Shown here: piece after piece, positions 20,467 through 28,388 of the stretch
Layout: every line of letters starts with the position of its first letter
Numbering within the stretch: position 1 is the first letter of the stretch
Assembly (NCBI GenBank): GCA_012735465.1
Contig: JAAYHJ010000016.1
Span: 16,648 to 80,647, forward strand
Reading direction: 5' to 3'
Length of the DNA stretch: 64,000 nt
Origin: Clostridiaceae bacterium
Lineage (GTDB): Bacteria; Bacillota; Clostridia; SK-Y3
The notes under the pieces: generated by a model
What the model saw: only the letters and a program-made list of their open reading frames with translations
Databases searched by the model: none
Told to the model about the DNA's origin: nothing
Translations under genes and position numbers: made by a program

Positions 20467-20558
20467 TATTAACACCCTTACGCCTTTACTTTCACATAAA
20501 TTATACACCAATATAAAATTTTTTCAAGTGAAAGCAATAAACCCAGGTACATTGCAAA

Positions 20559-20592
20559 GGTCCTACTGCCCGCTGAAGCGGGCAGTAGGACC
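20559..20592 (-). terminator. 15-bp perfect GC-rich hairpin closing the agr-like operon
   Basis: ggtcctactgcccgc-tgaa-gcgggcagtaggacc, 19 nt after the orf77 stop. The trailing T-run is weak (TTTG). Confidence 0.6.
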
Positions 20593-20610
20593 TCTGTAGT
20601 TGTGTTCCTC

Positions 20611-20844
20611 TTAGGCTTGGTGATATATTCTGAGAATAATACCTTCTTCTATTTCAAACTGTACCATTCCATTTTTCTCCAAAATTTTGTCCTCCACAGA
20701 TGTCCATATAGGCGGTACACCTATTCCCAGCTCATCGCATATGCTAACATATGCAATGAAAAAGCCTTTTCTGTCATTATACATCAGTTTAGCTGTTTTA
20801 GTTATTGTTCCCTCCTGAATGATTTCTCCTACTAGCGTTTTCAT
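20611..20844 (-). CDS. Hypothetical 77-aa soluble protein translationally coupled to agrB
   Basis: ATG 20842-20844 overlaps the agrB TGA 20841-20843 (ATGA). RBS GAAGGAG lies 6 nt upstream. Product MKTLVGEIIQEGTITKTAKLMYNDRKGFFIAYVSICDELGIGVPP... I recognise no family. Confidence 0.6.
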   Translation of the reverse strand: MKTLVGEIIQEGTITKTAKLMYNDRKGFFIAYVSICDELGIGVPPIWTSVEDKILEKNGMVQFEIEEGIILRIYHQA

Positions 20845-21410
20845 GCGCATCTCCTTCTATTAGCTAACTTTCCCAGAAAAAGAGTTAATGCTTCTATAAA
20901 TATTGCTATCACTGCTGTACCGGAGTATATATCAGGCAATAGAAAACTCATGGCTCCCATAACACATATAGCAGCCACCGAAAAATACTTTAAACGTAAT
21001 CTTCTGGACTGGCTGATAATAGGTTTATTTGGATGGTCCACTGGTGCAAATACTACCGCCAGAATAATTGATAGCAAAATGATGTATACTTTTACATTTA
21101 CTGGGAATGTATAACTTTTCCCCATTATAATAATTATTGTAAAAATAAGTAAAGTTGTAAAAAAACAGCGCCAGTACGTCTTTGAATGGTATCCTCCTGC
21201 TATTATGCGAAGCGTGCAAAAGAATATTGCTGCAACAAGAAAATAATCCAGTACCTTGAAAACTGAAAATAGGAAAACATATATTAGCATTTTTGTAATC
21301 TCACCTATAAGACATTCCAATCCATATTTAATTGTTCTGACTTGCAAATCTGTTAATTCTGTATTTTCACGCTGAATGGCATTGGTGATCTTCCTCGCTA
21401 ACTTTTCCAT
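20841..21410 (-). CDS. agrB: Accessory gene regulator B (AgrB) family peptide-processing membrane protease
   Basis: 189 aa, polytopic. It carries the conserved RIIAGGYHSKTYWRC His/Cys pair and the APVDHPNKPI motif (compare S. aureus APAATKKKPI). Confidence 0.88.
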   Translation of the reverse strand: MEKLARKITNAIQRENTELTDLQVRTIKYGLECLIGEITKMLIYVFLFSVFKVLDYFLVAAIFFCTLRIIAGGYHSKTYWRCFFTTLLIFTIIIIMGKSYTFPVNVKVYIILLSIILAVVFAPVDHPNKPIISQSRRLRLKYFSVAAICVMGAMSFLLPDIYSGTAVIAIFIEALTLFLGKLANRRRCA

Positions 21411-22746
21411 TATTATTCTTCCTTACATTAAATGTTATTAAAAACTCTGTTTCTTCTTCTGAACTAAATACGGAAATATTACCATTATTCTGCTGAACAA
21501 ATTTTTTAACAATATATAGTCCATATCCACGGTCTTTCTTATCATCTACATCCTTTGTGGAAAAACCGCTTTCAAATATTTTTTCCCTTATTTCATGAGG
21601 TATCATAGGACCGTTATCAGAAATAGATAAATAAAATTTGTCGTTTTCAATATAGGTGCAAAGAGATACCACTTTTCCGCTTTTTTCCGGAACGGAAAGG
21701 AAGGATTCAAAAGCATTGTCTAAAATATTTCCCACAATACTTGTCAAGTGGCTGTTATTTACATCCGCTTGGCTAAAAGGTGCTTCTATATCAACTTCCA
21801 GGTAAATATCATTTTCAAAGGCAAAATTATTTTTTACTGCCAGCAGCCCATCTATGTAAACATTTCCCGAATTAAAACACCGTACCGACGACTTCAGATT
21901 ATTAGTTAACTGCCTAATATATAATTCCATTTTCTCCAGGGCATCCGGTTTCTTCAACATGCAAATCGCAAGAAGTGTATTTAAATGATTTGTGAAATCG
22001 TGCTTTTCCCTTCTTATTATTTCAACAATAGTTTCCATGTTCTTTACATACTCTTGCTGCTCGTCCATTTTATATTTAAGCTTTAACATATTTTCCCTTT
22101 CATTGAGGTCAATAAAACATAATATAACGTACAGCAAATATATGATGAATAATAAAATATTGTAATGGGTGACATTTTTCTGCTGCGATACAACATAATT
22201 AACGCTTGCCATAAATACGGACATCATAAAAACCTGCATAATGACAAAGGAAAATGCGGATTTACCCTCATTTATTTCATTATGAATTTTAATACTAACA
22301 TTAAAACGGTAAAGTAAAATAGCCAAACCGGACTGAGCTATCTTACAACAAAGGGCATGAACAAATTTATTATTCGGTACCGCTAACAGTTCAGACATAT
22401 TGGTATTTAATAAGGTCATCCCAATAACCAAGATAATTGATTCGGTCACTATCAGAGTAACTCCAATGACAATCACAGTAATGGTTGAAGAATAAAAGCT
22501 GGATTTGGTAATAAAACTCAACACTATAATCATGAAAGCAGCTATACAAAGGGTATGAAATATGGGAGAAATATAGTTGGTAGCCCAATAAGTAAAAAAG
22601 GTATACAATAATATAAATACTATTGATTTAAATCTATTTTGTCTAATAAATTGTTTTATATTATTTAAACATGTAAAATAAACAAGTACAATAATTGATT
22701 CCCAAAAATCAAATAGTATTTCACGGGCAAAACTTATATTCCCCAT
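21367..22746 (-). CDS. AgrC-like (HPK10 family) sensor histidine kinase
   Basis: 459 aa with about 6 N-terminal TM helices, H-box IIRREKHDFTNHLNTL and a GHKL ATPase region (NILDNAFES...DNGPMIP...GFSTK...GYGLYIV). Overlaps agrB by 44 nt. Confidence 0.85.
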   Translation of the reverse strand: MGNISFAREILFDFWESIIVLVYFTCLNNIKQFIRQNRFKSIVFILLYTFFTYWATNYISPIFHTLCIAAFMIIVLSFITKSSFYSSTITVIVIGVTLIVTESIILVIGMTLLNTNMSELLAVPNNKFVHALCCKIAQSGLAILLYRFNVSIKIHNEINEGKSAFSFVIMQVFMMSVFMASVNYVVSQQKNVTHYNILLFIIYLLYVILCFIDLNERENMLKLKYKMDEQQEYVKNMETIVEIIRREKHDFTNHLNTLLAICMLKKPDALEKMELYIRQLTNNLKSSVRCFNSGNVYIDGLLAVKNNFAFENDIYLEVDIEAPFSQADVNNSHLTSIVGNILDNAFESFLSVPEKSGKVVSLCTYIENDKFYLSISDNGPMIPHEIREKIFESGFSTKDVDDKKDRGYGLYIVKKFVQQNNGNISVFSSEEETEFLITFNVRKNNNGKVSEEDHQCHSA

Positions 22747-22776
22747 ATTTAAAACCCCTTTTTAATTAATTATAAT

Positions 22777-22803
22777 AAAAAGGATGCAATATGCATCCTT
22801 TTT
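22777..22803 (-). terminator. Intercistronic hairpin/partial terminator between agrD and the kinase gene
   Basis: aaaaaggatgca-ata-tgcatccttttt: a 7-bp core stem extended by A/T runs. It overlaps the agrD stop codon. Confidence 0.5.
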
Positions 22804-22945
22804 ATTTGAGAAGTTCTTTAGGGCATTCCGGCTGATAGGAAGTGAAGAAAGAAGTAATCTGTACACCTCCTACTGCTACTGCAAGTGCCAGAGCTCCTAA
22901 AATGGATAAGGAGTACTTTCTTAAAAAGGATACGATATTTTTCAT
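22802..22945 (-). CDS. agrD: AgrD-type cyclic autoinducing-peptide precursor (47 aa), absent from the ORF track
   Basis: My translation is MKNIVSFLRKYSLSILGALALAVAVGGVQITSFFTSYQPECPKELLK. RBS GGAGGAGGG lies 7 nt upstream. The YQPECPKELL tail matches the AgrD (Y/H)(E/Q)PxxPxEL recognition motif. Confidence 0.7.
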   Translation of the reverse strand: MKNIVSFLRKYSLSILGALALAVAVGGVQITSFFTSYQPECPKELLK

Positions 22946-22976
22946 AAAAAACCCTCCTCCTTTGTTGGTTTATCTA

Positions 22977-22985
22977 ATTATACCA
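22977..22985 (-). promoter_or_regulatory. Extended -10 element (TGGTATAAT) upstream of agrD
   Basis: Minus strand TGTGGTATAAT, 32 nt upstream of the agrD ATG. No good -35 element. Confidence 0.45.
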
Positions 22986-24532: not shown

Positions 24533-25669
24533 TTATTGCGAAAAACCTACCGTCCTCACATAAGCTTCTACATTCATATTCAATTTTGATTTTTTAAAAA
24601 TATTTCTCCAGTCTTTTTCATGTTCTTTCCACCAACGAAGGTTATAATTTTTTACCAGCTTTCCAAGACCCAAAAAATCCGCATTGAATTCATCCTGTGA
24701 TTTTTTTAAAATTTCATTGCACTCTTTTTTTACCAATTCCTCGATGGAACTCTGAAGGCTTTCTATATATGCAGAAGATTCGGTAACCCGGTAATCCAGG
24801 TCTTCCATCTCTGTTACTCTTCCCTCTATACGAATATGCACGTTAAAATCCACCTTATCCTCGTAAAATACCGGCTTTATAGTTGTTCTTACTTCTTCCG
24901 TAACAAAAACAGTTGCCCCTTGGGACCCTGCTATGTTTTCAAACTTTATAATCCCTTCGGTCATATCTCGAGTAAGCCATTTGGCTTTTCGTATGTCTTC
25001 ATCGGAAAGAAAACCTATGAGCTTATCTTCTCTAAACACAGCCCCTCCTGCCAATGAAATATCCTCTTCACCTTTTGATAATTTTTGAAGTAAAAAGTCC
25101 ATATTGGACACCATAACTTTTGACATTTTCAGCAAATCCATACTTGGACTAATACGATAAAGGCGTTTTGCATTTAAAACCGATATCTCATTTAGATACT
25201 GGGCTGTGCTCATTGCAGTGGGAGGGGTCACTTCAAGAATATCCTTTGCTTTTCCTTCCGCTACCATTACATTGGTTTGCAGCCTGATATCAATTTCCCT
25301 TAAAAACAGGTCCATATATTTGCGGATTCCGTCCCTGGCAAGTTCTTCCCCAATGATCAGCACCTGGGTATGTTCCAGATCAATTACTTTGTTCATCCTT
25401 GCCAACATTTTTTTATCTGCCACTATAAAACGGTCAGCAACAGCACTAATATTCCATGTCTTGTTCTCTTCCGCCCCTTCACCAAACATCCCTTGCGGTA
25501 AAGCTATTTGATAAGTAACAACTATTTCCCCTTCATTTTCACCCTTATCCAACCCCATTCCCATAACAAATCCCCTGTCTTCAATCTCCACAATATCCCA
25601 GCATCCGGACAAAGGAAGTATAGAGATTATACACAGAAAGATTAAAAAGTTTCTTTTATACTTTCTCAC
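24533..25669 (-). CDS. Spore germination receptor subunit C, Ger(x)C-family lipoprotein
   Basis: Lipobox LPLSGCWD. 378 aa. Third gene of the A-B-C operon. Confidence 0.85.
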   Translation of the reverse strand: MRKYKRNFLIFLCIISILPLSGCWDIVEIEDRGFVMGMGLDKGENEGEIVVTYQIALPQGMFGEGAEENKTWNISAVADRFIVADKKMLARMNKVIDLEHTQVLIIGEELARDGIRKYMDLFLREIDIRLQTNVMVAEGKAKDILEVTPPTAMSTAQYLNEISVLNAKRLYRISPSMDLLKMSKVMVSNMDFLLQKLSKGEEDISLAGGAVFREDKLIGFLSDEDIRKAKWLTRDMTEGIIKFENIAGSQGATVFVTEEVRTTIKPVFYEDKVDFNVHIRIEGRVTEMEDLDYRVTESSAYIESLQSSIEELVKKECNEILKKSQDEFNADFLGLGKLVKNYNLRWWKEHEKDWRNIFKKSKLNMNVEAYVRTVGFSQ

Positions 25670-26768
25670 TTTTCTTTTCTCCCTTCTTGCGAATCAATGC
25701 AATTACCAGCAGAATTCCCGGAACAGTTACCACCACAGCAACCCCTAGATAAGACACCCATATGCTGTATTTATTTACCTCGCCAATATCCTGTGGAATT
25801 AATGATAAGAGATAAATTAAGGGCAAAATCAAATAACTAAAGGGCCTGTAATTTTTTAGCCCAACAAGCCTTGTTACATTATAGGTCGCAAGATAATAAA
25901 AAATTGAAATGGTAGTAAAAATGTTAAATATCCAAGGCACAGCAAATAATATATCAAATCTCTCCCCAAATACCCCTGGAAAAGAAATTGCCCTTGCCAT
26001 CTCCAGGGTAGGATAGGGGGAATATTTGAGTTTGTCAATTCCAAATACTCCTATGCTAATTGCCGTTGTTAAAGTAAATAAGGTAATGCAAAAAACAATA
26101 GCTACTGCGCTATAGGTTATTAATTTTTTGGGCCGGGCTGCAAAGGCTCCTGCAAAAAACAAGACTTCAAAACCTAAATAGGCCAACATAACCGAAGGAA
26201 TCTCCTTCAATAGGGTTAATATATCTATCTGCCAAAAGGAATACAGTTCCCGGATATCAAAAATGGTTAAGCTTACCACTGTCAATATGCCAAGAGCAAT
26301 AATTACAATGGGCAAAAAGGCTTCACAAATCCTTGCCAGAGGATTGATACCATTTTGTACGAGGTATGCCGACAGCACCAGAATAGTTCCAATGATGATC
26401 TCCGTAGGTGTTTTTTCCAAAAGAAACATATTGACTGTAACAGCAAATATCCGCACCACAATGGAAGCAACGCCGATAAAATATATAAATAATATGCCGT
26501 TTATTATTTTAGAACCCAACTTCCCCACCAGCTTTTTACTGTAGTCCAAAACTGTTTGACCGGGGAATAAGCTTCCAAGATATGCAATTACCGATGTAAA
26601 CAATAGGGTTATCAGTCCCGTAACAAAGGTTAAGATTACTCCCCCCGATGCCATTTTTTCTATTGCCTTGGCCGGAAGGGACATAAACCCCACTCCCATG
26701 ATTGCCGAGATAGTCAGTATTGCCAGTTGAATTCCACTTAGCATGTCTTTCTGTTGCTTCAAATACAA
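25656..26768 (-). CDS. Spore germination receptor subunit B (GerAB/APC-superfamily-like permease)
   Basis: 370 aa with about 10 TM. Overlaps the C-subunit start and abuts the A-subunit stop. Confidence 0.85.
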   Translation of the reverse strand: MYLKQQKDMLSGIQLAILTISAIMGVGFMSLPAKAIEKMASGGVILTFVTGLITLLFTSVIAYLGSLFPGQTVLDYSKKLVGKLGSKIINGILFIYFIGVASIVVRIFAVTVNMFLLEKTPTEIIIGTILVLSAYLVQNGINPLARICEAFLPIVIIALGILTVVSLTIFDIRELYSFWQIDILTLLKEIPSVMLAYLGFEVLFFAGAFAARPKKLITYSAVAIVFCITLFTLTTAISIGVFGIDKLKYSPYPTLEMARAISFPGVFGERFDILFAVPWIFNIFTTISIFYYLATYNVTRLVGLKNYRPFSYLILPLIYLLSLIPQDIGEVNKYSIWVSYLGVAVVVTVPGILLVIALIRKKGEKKSEKV

Positions 26769-28388
26769 TCACATCTCCTTCACTGGATCCTGTTCATAAC
26801 GGTCAATATCCACCGGGTTTATATATTCAGGCCTTCTTTTCATATATTGAATAGGAAGACGCAGTATAACATCCTTCCAATCCCTTAACTGGACAGGCGC
26901 AACGGGCGCCATGTAATTTACTCCAAAGCTTTTTAAAATCACCAGGTGAATGTTAATCAAAATAAAAGCAATGCATACCCCATATAAGCCCAGTATTCCT
27001 GCAAGAAACATGCTGAAAAAACGAAAGACTCTAAAGGCAATAGCCACACTATAAGAAGGTATTATAAAGGAAGCAATGGCAGTAATGGATACAACAACCA
27101 CCATGGAAGGAGAAGTTATACCTGCCCGTACGGCAGCATCCCCAATAATAATACCTCCTACAATTCCAATAGTCTGGCCAATGGGCTTTGGCAGTCGCGC
27201 TCCTGCTTCCCTCAGCAATTCAATGGTTATTTCCATGAGCAGTGCTTCAATTATAGCCGGAAACGGCACCAGCTCACGGTCGGCAGCTACCGATAATGCT
27301 AATGTGGTAGGCAGCATCTCGGGATGATAGGAAACAACAGCGATGTATAAGGCAGGAGCAAAAGTGGCCAGCAACGAGCCTATCCAGCGGAGCGACCGTA
27401 ACAGCGACCCTATAATCCATCTCTCATAATAGTCTTCAGGGCTTTGGAAGAACTGATACAGGTTAGCAGGTAAAATAAGGGCAAAAGGTGAGCCATCCAC
27501 CAGTATTACCACCCGTCCTTCCATCAATGCCGTTGCTGCCTTATCGGGACGTTCCGTATTTTGTATTTGAGGAAAAGGACTTAATTTATTGTCTTCAATA
27601 TACTGTTCAATCTGCCCCGCTTCATGAATATCATCCGTATCAATATCTTTTATCTTCTTTTCAATTTTATCCACCAACTCCGGCTGTGCTATCCCTTTAA
27701 TATAGCACAGCACCACATTTGTTTTGGTACGCCTTCCTAAGGTCATATTTCTCATAACAAAATTAGGGTCACGAATTCTTCTGCGCAGCAAAGCGGTATT
27801 AAATCTAATTGTCTCTGTAAAGCCATCCCGCGGTCCCCTTACAACCGCTTCCGTAGGCGGTTCCTCCACACCCCTTGATTCCAAATGACGAGTGCCTATA
27901 ACTATTGCTTTGTCATACCCGTCAATTAAAAGTATGGTTTCGCCGGACAAAAGGGGCAGCATGGCCTTATCAATGTCTTCTGCCTCTTTTAATTCGGCTA
28001 CCGATATTATTCTCTCCACTATAAGCGCTGCCGCCTGTTCCTTCTTTACGTCCTGTACCTTCTGTTCTTCCAGGAGCGCGCCGCCCCACATAATGGGTTG
28101 AATTATATGTAATTGTATCAAGGACTTATCAACCATTCCATCTACAAAGATTACACCACATTTAATATTGCTTATGAATGATGTAAACTGGCGAAAAACT
28201 ATATCATCACTGTCTTTAAGATAGGCTTTGAATTTATTAAAATTATCATCAAAATTTTTTGAAAAATTTGACGATACCTGCTCTTCAGGAGGCAGATTCT
28301 TGTCCTTTTCCTGGTCATCGTTTTTTGTTTCTCTTTTATTTTTTTTAATTATTTTTACCATACTGTCATCCTTTCGGACATTATTCAT
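26769..28388 (-). CDS. Spore germination receptor subunit A (GerAA/GerKA family)
   Basis: 539 aa with a soluble N-domain and C-terminal TM bundle (PALYIAVVSYHPEMLPTTLALSVAADRELVPFPA). The start may be ATG 28361 (RBS AAGGA) rather than 28388. Confidence 0.88.
   Translation of the reverse strand: MNNVRKDDSMVKIIKKNKRETKNDDQEKDKNLPPEEQVSSNFSKNFDDNFNKFKAYLKDSDDIVFRQFTSFISNIKCGVIFVDGMVDKSLIQLHIIQPIMWGGALLEEQKVQDVKKEQAAALIVERIISVAELKEAEDIDKAMLPLLSGETILLIDGYDKAIVIGTRHLESRGVEEPPTEAVVRGPRDGFTETIRFNTALLRRRIRDPNFVMRNMTLGRRTKTNVVLCYIKGIAQPELVDKIEKKIKDIDTDDIHEAGQIEQYIEDNKLSPFPQIQNTERPDKAATALMEGRVVILVDGSPFALILPANLYQFFQSPEDYYERWIIGSLLRSLRWIGSLLATFAPALYIAVVSYHPEMLPTTLALSVAADRELVPFPAIIEALLMEITIELLREAGARLPKPIGQTIGIVGGIIIGDAAVRAGITSPSMVVVVSITAIASFIIPSYSVAIAFRVFRFFSMFLAGILGLYGVCIAFILINIHLVILKSFGVNYMAPVAPVQLRDWKDVILRLPIQYMKRRPEYINPVDIDRYEQDPVKEM

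What the first reader, a model, noticed from the sequence alone, without database searches (positions are those of the whole stretch)
22802..22945. Unlisted 47-codon AgrD precursor predicting a serine (lactone) autoinducer ring
Seen: the ORF is below the track cutoff, with a strong RBS (GGAGGAGGG 7 nt upstream). The product is MKNIVSFLRKYSLSILGALALAVAVGGVQITSFFTSYQPECPKELLK. Established (from my memory of characterised AgrDs): a hydrophobic/amphipathic leader, then a 5-residue ring starting at Cys or Ser, then a charged tail beginning (Y/H/D)(E/Q)PxxPxEL. Examples are C. perfringens ...CLWFT/HQPEEPKSL and Listeria ...CFMFV/YEPKSP. The tail YQPECPKELL aligns with this pattern and places the ring at S-F-F-T-S. 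Position -5 is therefore Ser, not Cys, so an oxygen lactone is predicted (the known precedent is the Staphylococcus intermedius group). The only Cys lies in the discarded tail.
Basis: partly seen in the sequence, partly recalled or inferred. Interest (0 to 1): 0.7.

Follow-up and report, generated by a model that had tools for sequence, protein, structure and literature searches.

The report
Serine-type AgrD quorum-signal precursor gene
This is a genuine small gene for a cyclic-peptide quorum signal in a Clostridia genome, with serine where the textbook version has cysteine, but databases already annotate it and the same serine-ring prediction is published for its close relatives.

Summary
The 47-codon ORF exists exactly as described, but on the minus strand (22945→22802). 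It is the only AgrD-profile hit among 1,383 reading frames in the window.

It heads an operon: agrD, a hairpin, an AgrC-like membrane kinase, AgrB, a 79-aa ORF, then a terminator hairpin. There is no response regulator in the 64 kb.

Alignment to S. aureus AgrD1 puts Ser32 on Cys28 and Ser36|Tyr37 on the known Met32|Asp33 cleavage site. In 117 subfamily members the ring-start residue is always Ser (82), Thr (18) or Cys (17). Ring positions 2-5 are hypervariable and the 11-residue tail is conserved. The Ser32-Ser36 lactone prediction is therefore well supported.

It is not new. NCBI already names this peptide. Piatek 2022 drew the same S-x4 ring for the same operon type in acetogens. C. thermocellum has an LC-MS-verified Ser-lactone pentapeptide.

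Across 134 cluster representatives it tracks Ser/Thr ring starts (odds ratio 13, not corrected for phylogeny). This is unexplained.

Verdict: real, correctly read, a new member of a known kind.

The parts
22977..22985 (-). Extended -10-like element TGgTATAAT upstream of agrD. No good -35 at 17 nt. A possible promoter only.
   Evidence: Read by eye. The consensus scan lists only a weak TTTACA-17-CAAAAT at 23029-23001. Not evidence of function.
22952..22960 (-). Ribosome-binding site GGAGGAGGG, 6-nt spacer before the ATG
   Evidence: read directly from the sequence.
22802..22945 (-). agrD, the 47-aa precursor. Leader M1-T31 (22945-22853), predicted ring S32-F-F-T-S36 (22852-22838), tail Y37-K47 (22837-22805), stop (22804-22802).
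   Evidence: ORF. (TIGR04223, 38.4 bits against cutoff 19). (register against S. aureus AgrD1). (family conservation). (the only profile hit in the window).
22850..22852 (-). Codon TCT for Ser32, the predicted ring-forming nucleophile
   Evidence: It aligns with S. aureus Cys28. The column is S 82 / T 18 / C 17 in the subfamily. It is C 70 / S 42 / T 16 / K 4 in 134 wider representatives.
22823..22825 (-). Codon TGC for Cys41, tail position 5. It is invariant in the subfamily and its role is unknown.
   Evidence: It is the only invariant column in alignment A2 and is present in 117 of 117 members. It is coupled to Ser/Thr ring starts with odds ratio 13.3, p = 2e-10, not corrected for phylogeny.
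22774..22806 (-). 15-bp hairpin with A- and U-tracts that overlaps the agrD stop codon. Terminator- or attenuator-like, between agrD and the kinase gene.
   Evidence: -20.5 kcal/mol, z = -4.4, 0 of 200 shuffles fold as well. A hairpin at the same place, with unrelated sequence, occurs in 30 of 30 related loci. The simple terminator scan did not list it.
21367..22746 (-). 459-aa AgrC-like sensor histidine kinase. Polytopic N-terminal half of about 6-7 hydrophobic segments, then a DHp domain (H249 in the EKHDFxNH box) and an ATPase domain. The presumed AIP receptor.
   Evidence: SPOB_a 30.8, HATPase_c 62.9 and HATPase_c_5 37.6 bits; the S. aureus AgrC kinase module 6e52 aligns over DHp plus CA, E = 1e-6; the staphylococcal AgrC equivalog scores only 45 bits against a cutoff of 500; conserved H-box; the sensor half averages 30% identity across relatives and the kinase half 53%.
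20841..21410 (-). agrB, a 189-aa membrane cysteine peptidase/cyclase. It overlaps the kinase gene by 44 nt.
   Evidence: PF04647, 134.1 bits. R68, G72/G73, H75 and C82 conserved at 98-100% in 45 AgrBs. These match R70, G75, H77 and C84 of S. aureus AgrB (PMC10196373); the overlap is conserved in relatives.
20611..20850 (-). 79-aa ORF that overlaps the agrB end by 10 nt. A conserved fourth gene of the cassette in the closest relatives. Function unknown.
   Evidence: tblastn hits directly after agrB in about 17 loci; no NCBIfam or Pfam family. AF2 single-sequence pLDDT 85.8, topology beta-beta-alpha-alpha-beta-beta; no significant PDB fold match.
20555..20596 (-). 19-bp GC-rich hairpin after the 79-aa ORF. 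The likely end of the operon.
   Evidence: -43.7 kcal/mol, z = -7.3. Sequence.

Best explanation
The ORF is a functional agrD gene. It is the first gene of an agrD - AgrC-like kinase - agrB - 79-aa-ORF operon in an uncultured spore-forming Clostridia bacterium.

Inferred mechanism, by homology to S. aureus AgrBD:
1. The amphipathic, hydrophobic leader takes the 47-aa precursor to the membrane.
2. AgrB recognises the conserved tail YQPECPKELLK.
3. AgrB Cys82, with His75, cleaves between Ser36 and Tyr37 and holds residues 1-36 as a thioester.
4. The Ser32 hydroxyl attacks that thioester and closes a five-residue lactone ring, S-F-F-T-S.
5. After export a signal peptidase removes the leader. The site is uncertain. 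Candidates are after Thr31 (giving the bare pentapeptide), after Gly27 (giving VQIT-ring) or after Ala24.
6. The secreted peptide is sensed by the co-encoded polytopic kinase. Its output partner is not encoded nearby.

The hairpin after agrD probably gives abundant short agrD transcripts, with partial read-through into the kinase, agrB and 79-aa genes.

Shown here: the gene, family membership, the alignment register, conservation of a nucleophile at position 32, the AgrB catalytic residues, and the operon anatomy. Inferred: every chemical step, expression, the leader cleavage site, and the receptor assignment.
For: - TIGR04223 scores 38.4 bits against a cutoff of 19. This frame is the only profile hit in the window.
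- AgrB scores 134 bits on PF04647. H75 and C82 are invariant in 45 of 45 AgrBs, and R68 and G73 are also conserved. These equal S. aureus R70, G75, H77 and C84 (PMC10196373).
- MAFFT aligns S32 with C28 and S36|Y37 with the experimentally known M32|D33 cleavage site, and aligns the PKEL motifs.
- In 117 distinct subfamily peptides the ring start is S 82 / T 18 / C 17. Ring positions 2-5 are hypervariable. The tail is always 11 residues, [HYQ]-Q-P-K-C-P-x-E-[LF]-L-K.
- In 134 representatives at 50% identity the column is C 70 / S 42 / T 16 / K 4. The remaining two have Cys one residue earlier.
- The five closest loci (L002-L006) all keep Ser with different ring residues.
- The kinase sensor half diverges faster than the catalytic half, 30% against 53% identity, as expected for a receptor of a variable ligand.
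- The D-kinase-B order recurs in about 40 of the roughly 60 fetched loci.
- Experimental precedents: the C. thermocellum AgrD gives an S25-F29 lactone followed by Y30 and P35, the same Y-x4-P spacing, confirmed by LC-MS/MS against a synthetic standard (PMC5322536). The S. pseudintermedius AIP is a Ser lactone (PMC3673130). The C. autoethanogenum agrD1-agrC1-agrB1 system belongs to the same subfamily, and a double agrD deletion has a phenotype (PMC8748961).
Against: - No transcript, peptide or mass evidence exists for this organism, which is a MAG.
- No member of the tail-Cys subfamily has had its AIP chemically determined. I could not establish whether the C. thermocellum peptide belongs to this subfamily, because its sequence is not in the held text.
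- The residues before the ring (V-Q-I-T) are a poor signal-peptidase site, unlike the A-x-A found in relatives, so the mature N-terminus is unknown.
- The staphylococcal Pfam AgrD model does not hit.
- The invariant Cys41 has no role in this mechanism, which leaves a strongly conserved feature unexplained.
- No response regulator is present in the window, so the signalling output is unknown.
Confidence: 0.75

Rival explanations
1. The biosynthesis is the same, but the mature signal is not a lactone. If leader removal exposes the free alpha-amine of Ser32 (the tail-free pentapeptide), an O-to-N acyl shift converts the lactone into the isomeric head-to-tail lactam cyclo(SFFTS). This has been shown for tail-free Cys AIPs of Clostridia.
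For: Molloy 2021 (PMC8251862) showed that the R. cellulolyticum AIP is a homodetic cyclopeptide that arises from a thiolactone. The authors state that the fate of Ser lactones lacking an N-terminal extension 'remains to be clarified'. Many relatives have an A-x-A signal-peptidase motif immediately before the ring residue (for example VSTA|S and ASAA|T), which predicts tail-free pentapeptides.
Against: The window peptide has V-Q-I-T before Ser32, a poor -3/-1 site. The better candidates (VGG|V, AVA|V) would leave an exocyclic tail that blocks the shift. Oxoesters are less reactive than thioesters. The C. thermocellum product matched a synthetic lactone standard (PMC5322536).
Confidence: 0.12
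2. The invariant Cys41, not Ser32, is the residue that matters chemically. Either it forms a thiolactone ring itself (C-P-K-E-L, leaving only -LK as a tail), or cleavage occurs just before it and gives a 9-residue, GBAP-like Ser32-Glu40 lactone.
For: Cys41 is the only invariant column of the subfamily and is present in 117 of 117 members. It is the only Cys in the peptide. E. faecalis GBAP shows that AgrB-type enzymes can make 9-residue Ser lactones (PMC3673130).
Against: In S. aureus the aligned residue is Val37, inside the tail that is released. In 84 of 134 representatives the position is V, M, I, F, L, T or similar, so it is not a general nucleophile site. A CPxEL ring would be almost identical across species, while the kinase sensor domain diverges. 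Only 2 residues would remain for AgrB recognition. The cleavage site lies 5 residues before the conserved Pro in S. aureus (PMC10196373) and in C. thermocellum (PMC5322536). The S/T/C-only column at position 32 would be left unexplained.
Confidence: 0.04
3. The peptide is made and cyclised as in the best explanation, but it is not a classical density signal. It may act as a stress-induced growth modulator, or mainly on other species.
For: In C. thermocellum the Ser-lactone peptide was induced by xylose stress rather than by density, and it slowed growth at 50 uM (PMC5322536). There is no agrA and no receiver domain in the 64-kb window. Only 6 of about 60 related loci have any receiver gene within 5 kb.
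Against: A dedicated polytopic AgrC-like kinase is co-transcribed with agrD and agrB in about 40 of the roughly 60 fetched loci. Its sensor half diverges faster than its catalytic half, as a cognate receptor would.
Confidence: 0.07
4. It is a chance ORF or a decayed, unexpressed remnant.
For: It is short, and no expression data exist for this MAG.
Against: Profile E = 3.6e-21 and it is the only hit in the window. It has a strong RBS. The reading frame is intact and the tail matches the consensus. The neighbouring kinase, agrB and 79-aa genes are intact. The structural hairpin is conserved.
Confidence: 0.02

Closest known systems
Clostridium autoethanogenum / C. ljungdahlii Agr 'System 1' (agrD1-agrC1-agrB1; Piatek et al. 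2022, PMC8748961)
   Same: Same gene order, D-C-B, with no agrA. Same AgrD subfamily: 47 aa and an 11-residue tail [HYQ]QPKCPxELLK with the invariant Cys. The kinases are full-length homologues (C. ljungdahlii L027, L033 and L046 at 36-38% identity). Their Table S5 draws the same Ser-x4 ring.
   Different: Only about 36-40% peptide identity. The window cassette carries a 79-aa ORF after agrB instead of a spo0E-like gene. The ring sequence SFFTS is unique. The organism is an uncultured bacterium whose closest kinase match in a named organism is Petroclostridium (55%).
Clostridium (Acetivibrio) thermocellum AgrD Clo1313_2818 (Verbeke et al. 2017, PMC5322536)
   Same: A clostridial AgrD with Ser at the ring start. 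Its five-residue lactone (S25-F29) is followed by Tyr, with a conserved Pro five residues later. This is the same spacing as S32-S36, Y37 and P42 here. The product was verified by LC-MS/MS.
   Different: That gene is not next to agrB or a kinase. Its leader ends in a predicted A|S signal-peptidase site that gives a tail-free pentapeptide. I could not establish whether it has the tail Cys.
Staphylococcus pseudintermedius / intermedius AIP (Ji et al. 2005, cited in PMC3673130)
   Same: A Ser-lactone AIP made by AgrB from AgrD. It is a nonapeptide with a four-residue exocyclic tail, the format the window peptide would have if it is cleaved after Gly27 (VQIT-SFFTS).
   Different: It belongs to a canonical agrBDCA operon with an AgrA/LytTR regulator and RNAIII. 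It is a staphylococcal-type precursor, and the staphylococcal Pfam AgrD model does not hit the window peptide. The staphylococcal AgrD1 aligned here has Val, not Cys, at tail position 5.
Staphylococcus aureus agrBDCA
   Same: AgrB catalytic residues R, G, H and C are conserved. The AgrD register is identical from the nucleophile to the P-K-E-L motif. The kinase module aligns with the S. aureus AgrC module 6e52 over DHp plus CA.
   Different: S. aureus uses a Cys thiolactone, gene order B-D-C-A, and has agrA. Here the kinase scores 45 bits against the 500-bit cutoff of the staphylococcal AgrC equivalog model, and its DHp domain also matches the SPOB_a/CitA-DcuS type.

Membership tests
AgrD family cyclic lactone autoinducer peptide (TIGR04223) | Scores above the curated cutoff of the family model | tested here: met
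   38.4 bits against a cutoff of 19, E = 9.3e-10, model positions 1-38 of 38.
AgrD family cyclic lactone autoinducer peptide (TIGR04223) | Cys or Ser nucleophile five residues before the cleavage site, with a conserved Pro at tail position 6 and an E-L motif | tested here: met
   MAFFT with S. aureus AgrD1 gives S32 = C28, S36|Y37 = M32|D33 and P42-K-E-L45 = P38-K-E-L41. The column is S/T/C in 117 of 117 subfamily members. Pro is conserved in 124 of 124 representatives.
AgrD family cyclic lactone autoinducer peptide (TIGR04223) | Encoded with an AgrB peptidase/cyclase that has the catalytic His and Cys | tested here: met
   PF04647 at 134.1 bits. H75 and C82 are 100% conserved, R68 98% and G73 100%, in 45 AgrBs. 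They correspond to S. aureus H77, C84, R70 and G75 (PMC10196373).
AgrD family cyclic lactone autoinducer peptide (TIGR04223) | The precursor is actually processed to a secreted (thio)lactone peptide | not testable with these tools
   This needs co-expression and LC-MS/MS. Predicted masses are given.
Staphylococcal AgrD (Pfam AgrD model) | Match to the Pfam model | tested here: not met
   No Pfam family at E <= 1 for the 47-aa peptide. It is not a staphylococcal-type AgrD.
Canonical agrBDCA quorum-sensing operon | Gene order agrB-agrD-agrC-agrA | tested here: not met
   The order here is agrD, kinase, agrB, 79-aa ORF. The same order occurs in about 40 of the roughly 60 fetched loci.
Canonical agrBDCA quorum-sensing operon | Adjacent AgrA (receiver plus LytTR) response regulator | tested here: not met
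   phmmer with a CheY receiver domain (sequence from memory) finds no hit at E <= 1 among all ORFs of 40 aa or more in the 64-kb window. Only 6 of about 60 related loci have any receiver ORF within 5 kb. The rest of the genome could not be searched.
Canonical agrBDCA quorum-sensing operon | AgrC-type (HPK10) polytopic receptor kinase | tested here: inconclusive
   For: HATPase_c_5 at 37.6 bits against a cutoff of 22, a full DHp plus CA alignment to the S. aureus AgrC module 6e52 at E = 1e-6, and a multi-span N-terminal half. Against: NF046015 at 45 bits against a cutoff of 500, and better core scores to DcuS/MalK/DpiB with a SPOB_a DHp domain.
Acetogen-type agrD-agrC-agrB system without agrA (C. 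autoethanogenum System 1) | D-C-B order, AgrD tail [HYQ]QPxCPxELLK, homologous kinase and AgrB | tested here: met
   Table S5 of PMC8748961.
Acetogen-type agrD-agrC-agrB system without agrA (C. autoethanogenum System 1) | Neighbouring spo0E-like gene | tested here: not met
   No Spo0E-like ORF in the window. A 79-aa ORF of unknown family follows agrB instead. Spo0E-like genes (PF09388, 43 and 42 bits) flank the cassette in at least 10 related loci.
Serine-lactone AIPs (S. pseudintermedius, C. thermocellum) | Ser in the ring-forming column | tested here: met
   S32.
Serine-lactone AIPs (S. pseudintermedius, C. thermocellum) | Oxygen ester (lactone) linkage in the mature peptide | not testable with these tools
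   A lactone and its lactam isomer have the same mass. Distinguishing them needs synthetic standards or base hydrolysis (the issue is raised in PMC8251862).

The most novel reading that the evidence does not exclude
The invariant tail cysteine (Cys41) marks a mechanistically distinct AgrB/AgrD subclass. In this subclass a thiol in the leaving tail is needed to process precursors whose ring nucleophile is a hydroxyl (Ser or Thr), for example as an acyl relay or as a covalent or metal contact with AgrB. A second, independent part of this reading concerns the kinase. The orphan AgrC-like kinase of this cassette has no partner regulator, has a Spo0B-type DHp domain, and has Spo0E phosphatase genes as frequent neighbours. 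It may pass the peptide signal directly to Spo0A.
Probability: 0.12. Interest if true: 0.65.

Novelty: new member of a known kind. Interest (0 to 1): 0.3.

Why it matters
For this window it adds little. The gene is already annotated, and the serine-ring reading is already in print for sister systems.

The value lies at family level. This agrD-kinase-agrB cassette is widespread in Clostridia, including industrial acetogens and solvent producers. None of its peptides has been chemically defined. About 70% of the cassette's own subfamily start the ring with Ser and 15% with Thr (31% and 12% of the wider cluster representatives).

A single co-expression and LC-MS experiment on any member would do three things:
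- fix the chemistry of a large, uncharacterised block of quorum signals;
- test whether Thr (and possibly Lys) rings exist;
- show whether the conserved tail Cys has a role.

Identifying the kinase's partner would address how peptide signals reach sporulation or metabolism in clostridia that lack AgrA.

Tried and rejected
- A single-sequence search with the 47-aa peptide found only itself. I had to reach relatives through the kinase and then use a peptide profile.
- No solved AgrB structure was found by sequence, so catalytic residues were checked by conservation and against the literature instead.
- The consensus terminator scan missed both hairpins. They were found by eye and confirmed by folding.
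- The promoter scan gave only weak hits upstream of agrD. The TGnTATAAT element was read by eye and is unproven.
- The 79-aa ORF has no Pfam or NCBIfam hit. A confident single-sequence AF2 model gave no significant PDB fold match (best E = 0.54). Its function stays unknown.
- I tried to obtain the C. thermocellum AgrD sequence from the paper and its supplement, to see whether it carries the tail Cys. It is not in the held text.
- I searched for papers on Thr-lactone AIPs and on AgrC-like orphan kinases acting on Spo0A. Nothing specific turned up.
- I considered and rejected Cys41 as the ring residue (see the rival explanations).
- I considered T31, T35 and S36 as alternative nucleophiles and rejected them. 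Only column 32 is nucleophile-only across the family.
- Genomic context for the Lys-type peptides could not be looked up, because those ids came from the representative search.

Full report
**Observation.** The ORF is real. GGAGGAGGG sits at 22960-22952, followed by six T and the ATG. TIGR04223 scores 38.4 bits against a curated cutoff of 19, E = 9.3e-10. A profile built from the subfamily hits this frame alone among 1,383 stop-to-stop frames of the window (E = 3.6e-21, next best 0.31). The staphylococcal Pfam AgrD model does not hit. The identical peptide is already in NCBI as 'cyclic lactone autoinducer peptide' from a Clostridiaceae MAG, GCA_001513565.1.

**Surroundings.** All the parts below lie on the minus strand, in this order:
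- A possible extended -10 element, TGgTATAAT, at 22985-22977. This was read by eye. The scan gives only weak hits.
- agrD.
- A 15-bp hairpin with flanking A and U tracts that overlaps the stop codon (22806-22774; -20.5 kcal/mol, z = -4.4).
- A 459-aa kinase (22746-21367).
- agrB (21410-20841), with a 44-nt overlap.
- A 79-aa ORF (20850-20611), with a 10-nt overlap.
- A 19-bp GC hairpin (20596-20555; z = -7.3).

AgrB scores 134 bits on PF04647.

The kinase has a multi-span hydrophobic N-terminal half and three domain matches: SPOB_a, HATPase_c and HATPase_c_5. Among solved structures, the S. aureus AgrC kinase module (6e52) is the only one that aligns across both DHp and ATPase domains, E = 1e-6. 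It is far from the staphylococcal AgrC equivalog, at 45 bits against a cutoff of 500. Its core scores higher on DcuS/MalK-type models.

No receiver domain and no Spo0E-like ORF occur anywhere in the 64 kb. That search used a CheY sequence recalled from memory.

**Related loci.** A kinase alignment retrieved 79 genome loci. About 40 of the roughly 60 loci with a kinase relative carry the same agrD-kinase-agrB order. The closest ones also have the 79-aa ORF.
- A hairpin follows agrD in 30 of 30 loci tested, with unrelated sequences. It is therefore conserved as structure, not as sequence.
- Only 6 of about 60 loci have any receiver gene within 5 kb, so this is a family of orphan kinases.
- Spo0E-like genes (PF09388, 43 and 42 bits) flank the cassette in at least 10 loci.
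- AgrB H75 and C82 are invariant in 45 of 45 sequences, and R68 and G73 are also conserved. These are the counterparts of S. aureus R70, G75, H77 and C84, which are required for activity (PMC10196373).

**Where the ring is.** PMC10196373 gives the S. aureus AgrD1 sequence, the nucleophile Cys28 and the cleavage site Met32|Asp33. MAFFT places window Ser32 on Cys28, Ser36|Tyr37 on Met32|Asp33, and P42-K-E-L45 on P38-K-E-L41.

The AgrD peptides extracted from the loci, and 117 distinct subfamily members from a profile search, show the classic AgrD pattern:
- The ring-start column is Ser 82, Thr 18, Cys 17, and nothing else.
- Ring positions 2-5 are hypervariable.
- The tail is always 11 residues, [HYQ]-Q-P-K-C-P-x-E-[LF]-L-K.

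An exhaustive profile search of 1.84 billion cluster representatives gave 134 AgrD-like clusters. In these the same column is Cys 70, Ser 42, Thr 16, Lys 4. The two exceptions have Cys one residue earlier.

The five closest loci (L002-L006) all keep Ser with different ring sequences: SFFSS, SWHTG, SWFEG, SWITS and SLFTL.

T31, T35 and S36 are not conserved as nucleophiles, so Ser32 is the only consistent candidate.

**Mechanism.** By homology, AgrB Cys82/His75 cleaves after Ser36 and forms an acyl-thioester. The Ser32 hydroxyl then closes a five-residue lactone, and a signal peptidase removes the leader. These steps are inferred, not shown.

The N-terminal boundary is uncertain. Most relatives have an A-x-A-type site immediately before the ring, which predicts a bare pentapeptide. 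The window has V-Q-I-T there, with better sites after Gly27 or Ala24. If the pentapeptide is tail-free, an O-to-N shift to the isomeric lactam is possible. Molloy 2021 showed this for Cys AIPs and left it open for Ser (PMC8251862).

The kinase is the presumed receptor. Its sensor half averages 30% identity across relatives, against 53% for the catalytic half. Its downstream partner is unknown.

**Comparison with what is known.** The closest described system is C. autoethanogenum 'System 1', agrD1-agrC1-agrB1. It has no agrA and has a spo0E-like neighbour (PMC8748961). Its AgrDs and those of C. ljungdahlii, C. ragsdalei, C. drakei and C. coskatii fall in the same subfamily. Those AIPs were never chemically determined.

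A clostridial Ser-lactone has been verified. The C. thermocellum S25-F29 ring is followed by Y30 and P35, the same spacing as here (PMC5322536).

The finding is therefore a correct reading of a new member of a known kind. In this part of the AgrD family Ser is common, at 31% of clusters and 70% of the subfamily.

The 'discarded' Cys41 is the only invariant column of the subfamily (117 of 117). Among the 134 representatives the counts are:

| | ring start Ser/Thr | ring start Cys |
|---|---|---|
| tail Cys present | 40 | 10 |
| tail Cys absent | 18 | 60 |

This gives an odds ratio of 13.3 and Fisher p = 2e-10. The test is not corrected for phylogeny, and the tail-Cys peptides are largely one clade. 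It may be no more than a clade marker or an AgrB-recognition residue. I know of no mechanism that gives a tail thiol a role.

Reading Cys41 as the ring residue is unlikely, for four reasons:
- The aligned S. aureus residue is Val37, in the released tail.
- Most other AgrDs have a hydrophobic residue there.
- A CPxEL ring would be nearly the same in all species.
- Only two residues would remain as a tail.

**Verdict.** Novelty is low for the window itself. Modest interest remains at family level: undefined chemistry, Thr and possibly Lys ring starts, the tail Cys, and an orphan kinase with Spo0E neighbours.

Noticed in passing
window 22823-22825 (Cys41 codon); loci L002-L055; proteins P0093-P0335: The tail Cys (position 5 of the 11-residue tail) is the only invariant residue of the AgrD subfamily. 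Across 134 cluster representatives it co-occurs with Ser/Thr ring starts (40 against 10 with Cys starts). Peptides without it mostly have Cys ring starts (60 against 18). Odds ratio 13.3, p = 2e-10, not corrected for phylogeny. Thr at the same tail position also goes with Ser rings (5 of 6). No known mechanism explains this.
   Followed up: partly
L008, L010, L011, L013, L015, L017, L022, L026, L036; P0107, P0149, P0159, P0160, P0165 and others: Eighteen of the 117 subfamily AgrDs, and 16 of 134 representatives, have Thr at the ring-start column. It usually follows an A-S-A-A signal-peptidase motif. This predicts threonine-lactone pentapeptides. One full-text search found no paper describing such an AIP.
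   Followed up: partly
P0232 (KMVWF), P0234 (KLIIF), P0237 (KYIFF), P0242 (KFFIF): Four AgrD-like representatives have Lys at the ring-start column. This would predict an isopeptide (lactam) ring made by an AgrB-type enzyme.
   Followed up: no
window 20611-20850 (-); L002 6870-7103, L003 6903-7118, L007 6869-7099 and about 14 more loci: A 79-aa ORF overlaps the end of agrB and is conserved as the fourth gene of the cassette in the closest relatives. It has no Pfam or NCBIfam family. The AF2 model is confident (pLDDT 85.8, beta-beta-alpha-alpha-beta-beta) but has no significant PDB fold match.
   Followed up: partly
L018 4413-4577, L021 4486-4650, L024 4484-4651, L025 4424-4582, L026 4435-4617, L032 7139-7309, L044 7147-7293, L046 4485-4658, L049 4457-4651: Spo0E-like phosphatase genes (PF09388) lie immediately beside the agrD-kinase-agrB cassette in many Clostridium loci. 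The kinases have no adjacent response regulator, and their DHp domain matches the Spo0B-type model. This hints at a link to Spo0A. The link is untested, and no paper was found that shows it.
   Followed up: partly
L003 7274-8611, L004 7245-8540, L041 6401-7705: Some relatives carry a second, tandem copy of the AgrC-like kinase downstream of the cassette.
   Followed up: no
window 23030-23024 and 23011-23005 (-): Two direct copies of TTTTACA lie 19 nt apart, just upstream of the putative agrD -10 element. They could be a regulator binding site or just AT-rich chance.
   Followed up: no
window 23598-23571 (-): A perfect 12-of-12 sigma-70 consensus with a TG extension lies upstream of the YfcE-family phosphodiesterase gene (23534-23049). 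That gene sits directly upstream of agrD on the same strand.
   Followed up: no
window 24533-28388 (-): Three consecutive ORFs of 539, 370 and 378 aa look like a GerA-type spore germination receptor operon (A, B and lipoprotein C subunits), judging from the sequences alone. This would fit a spore-forming host. It was not tested against family models.
   Followed up: no
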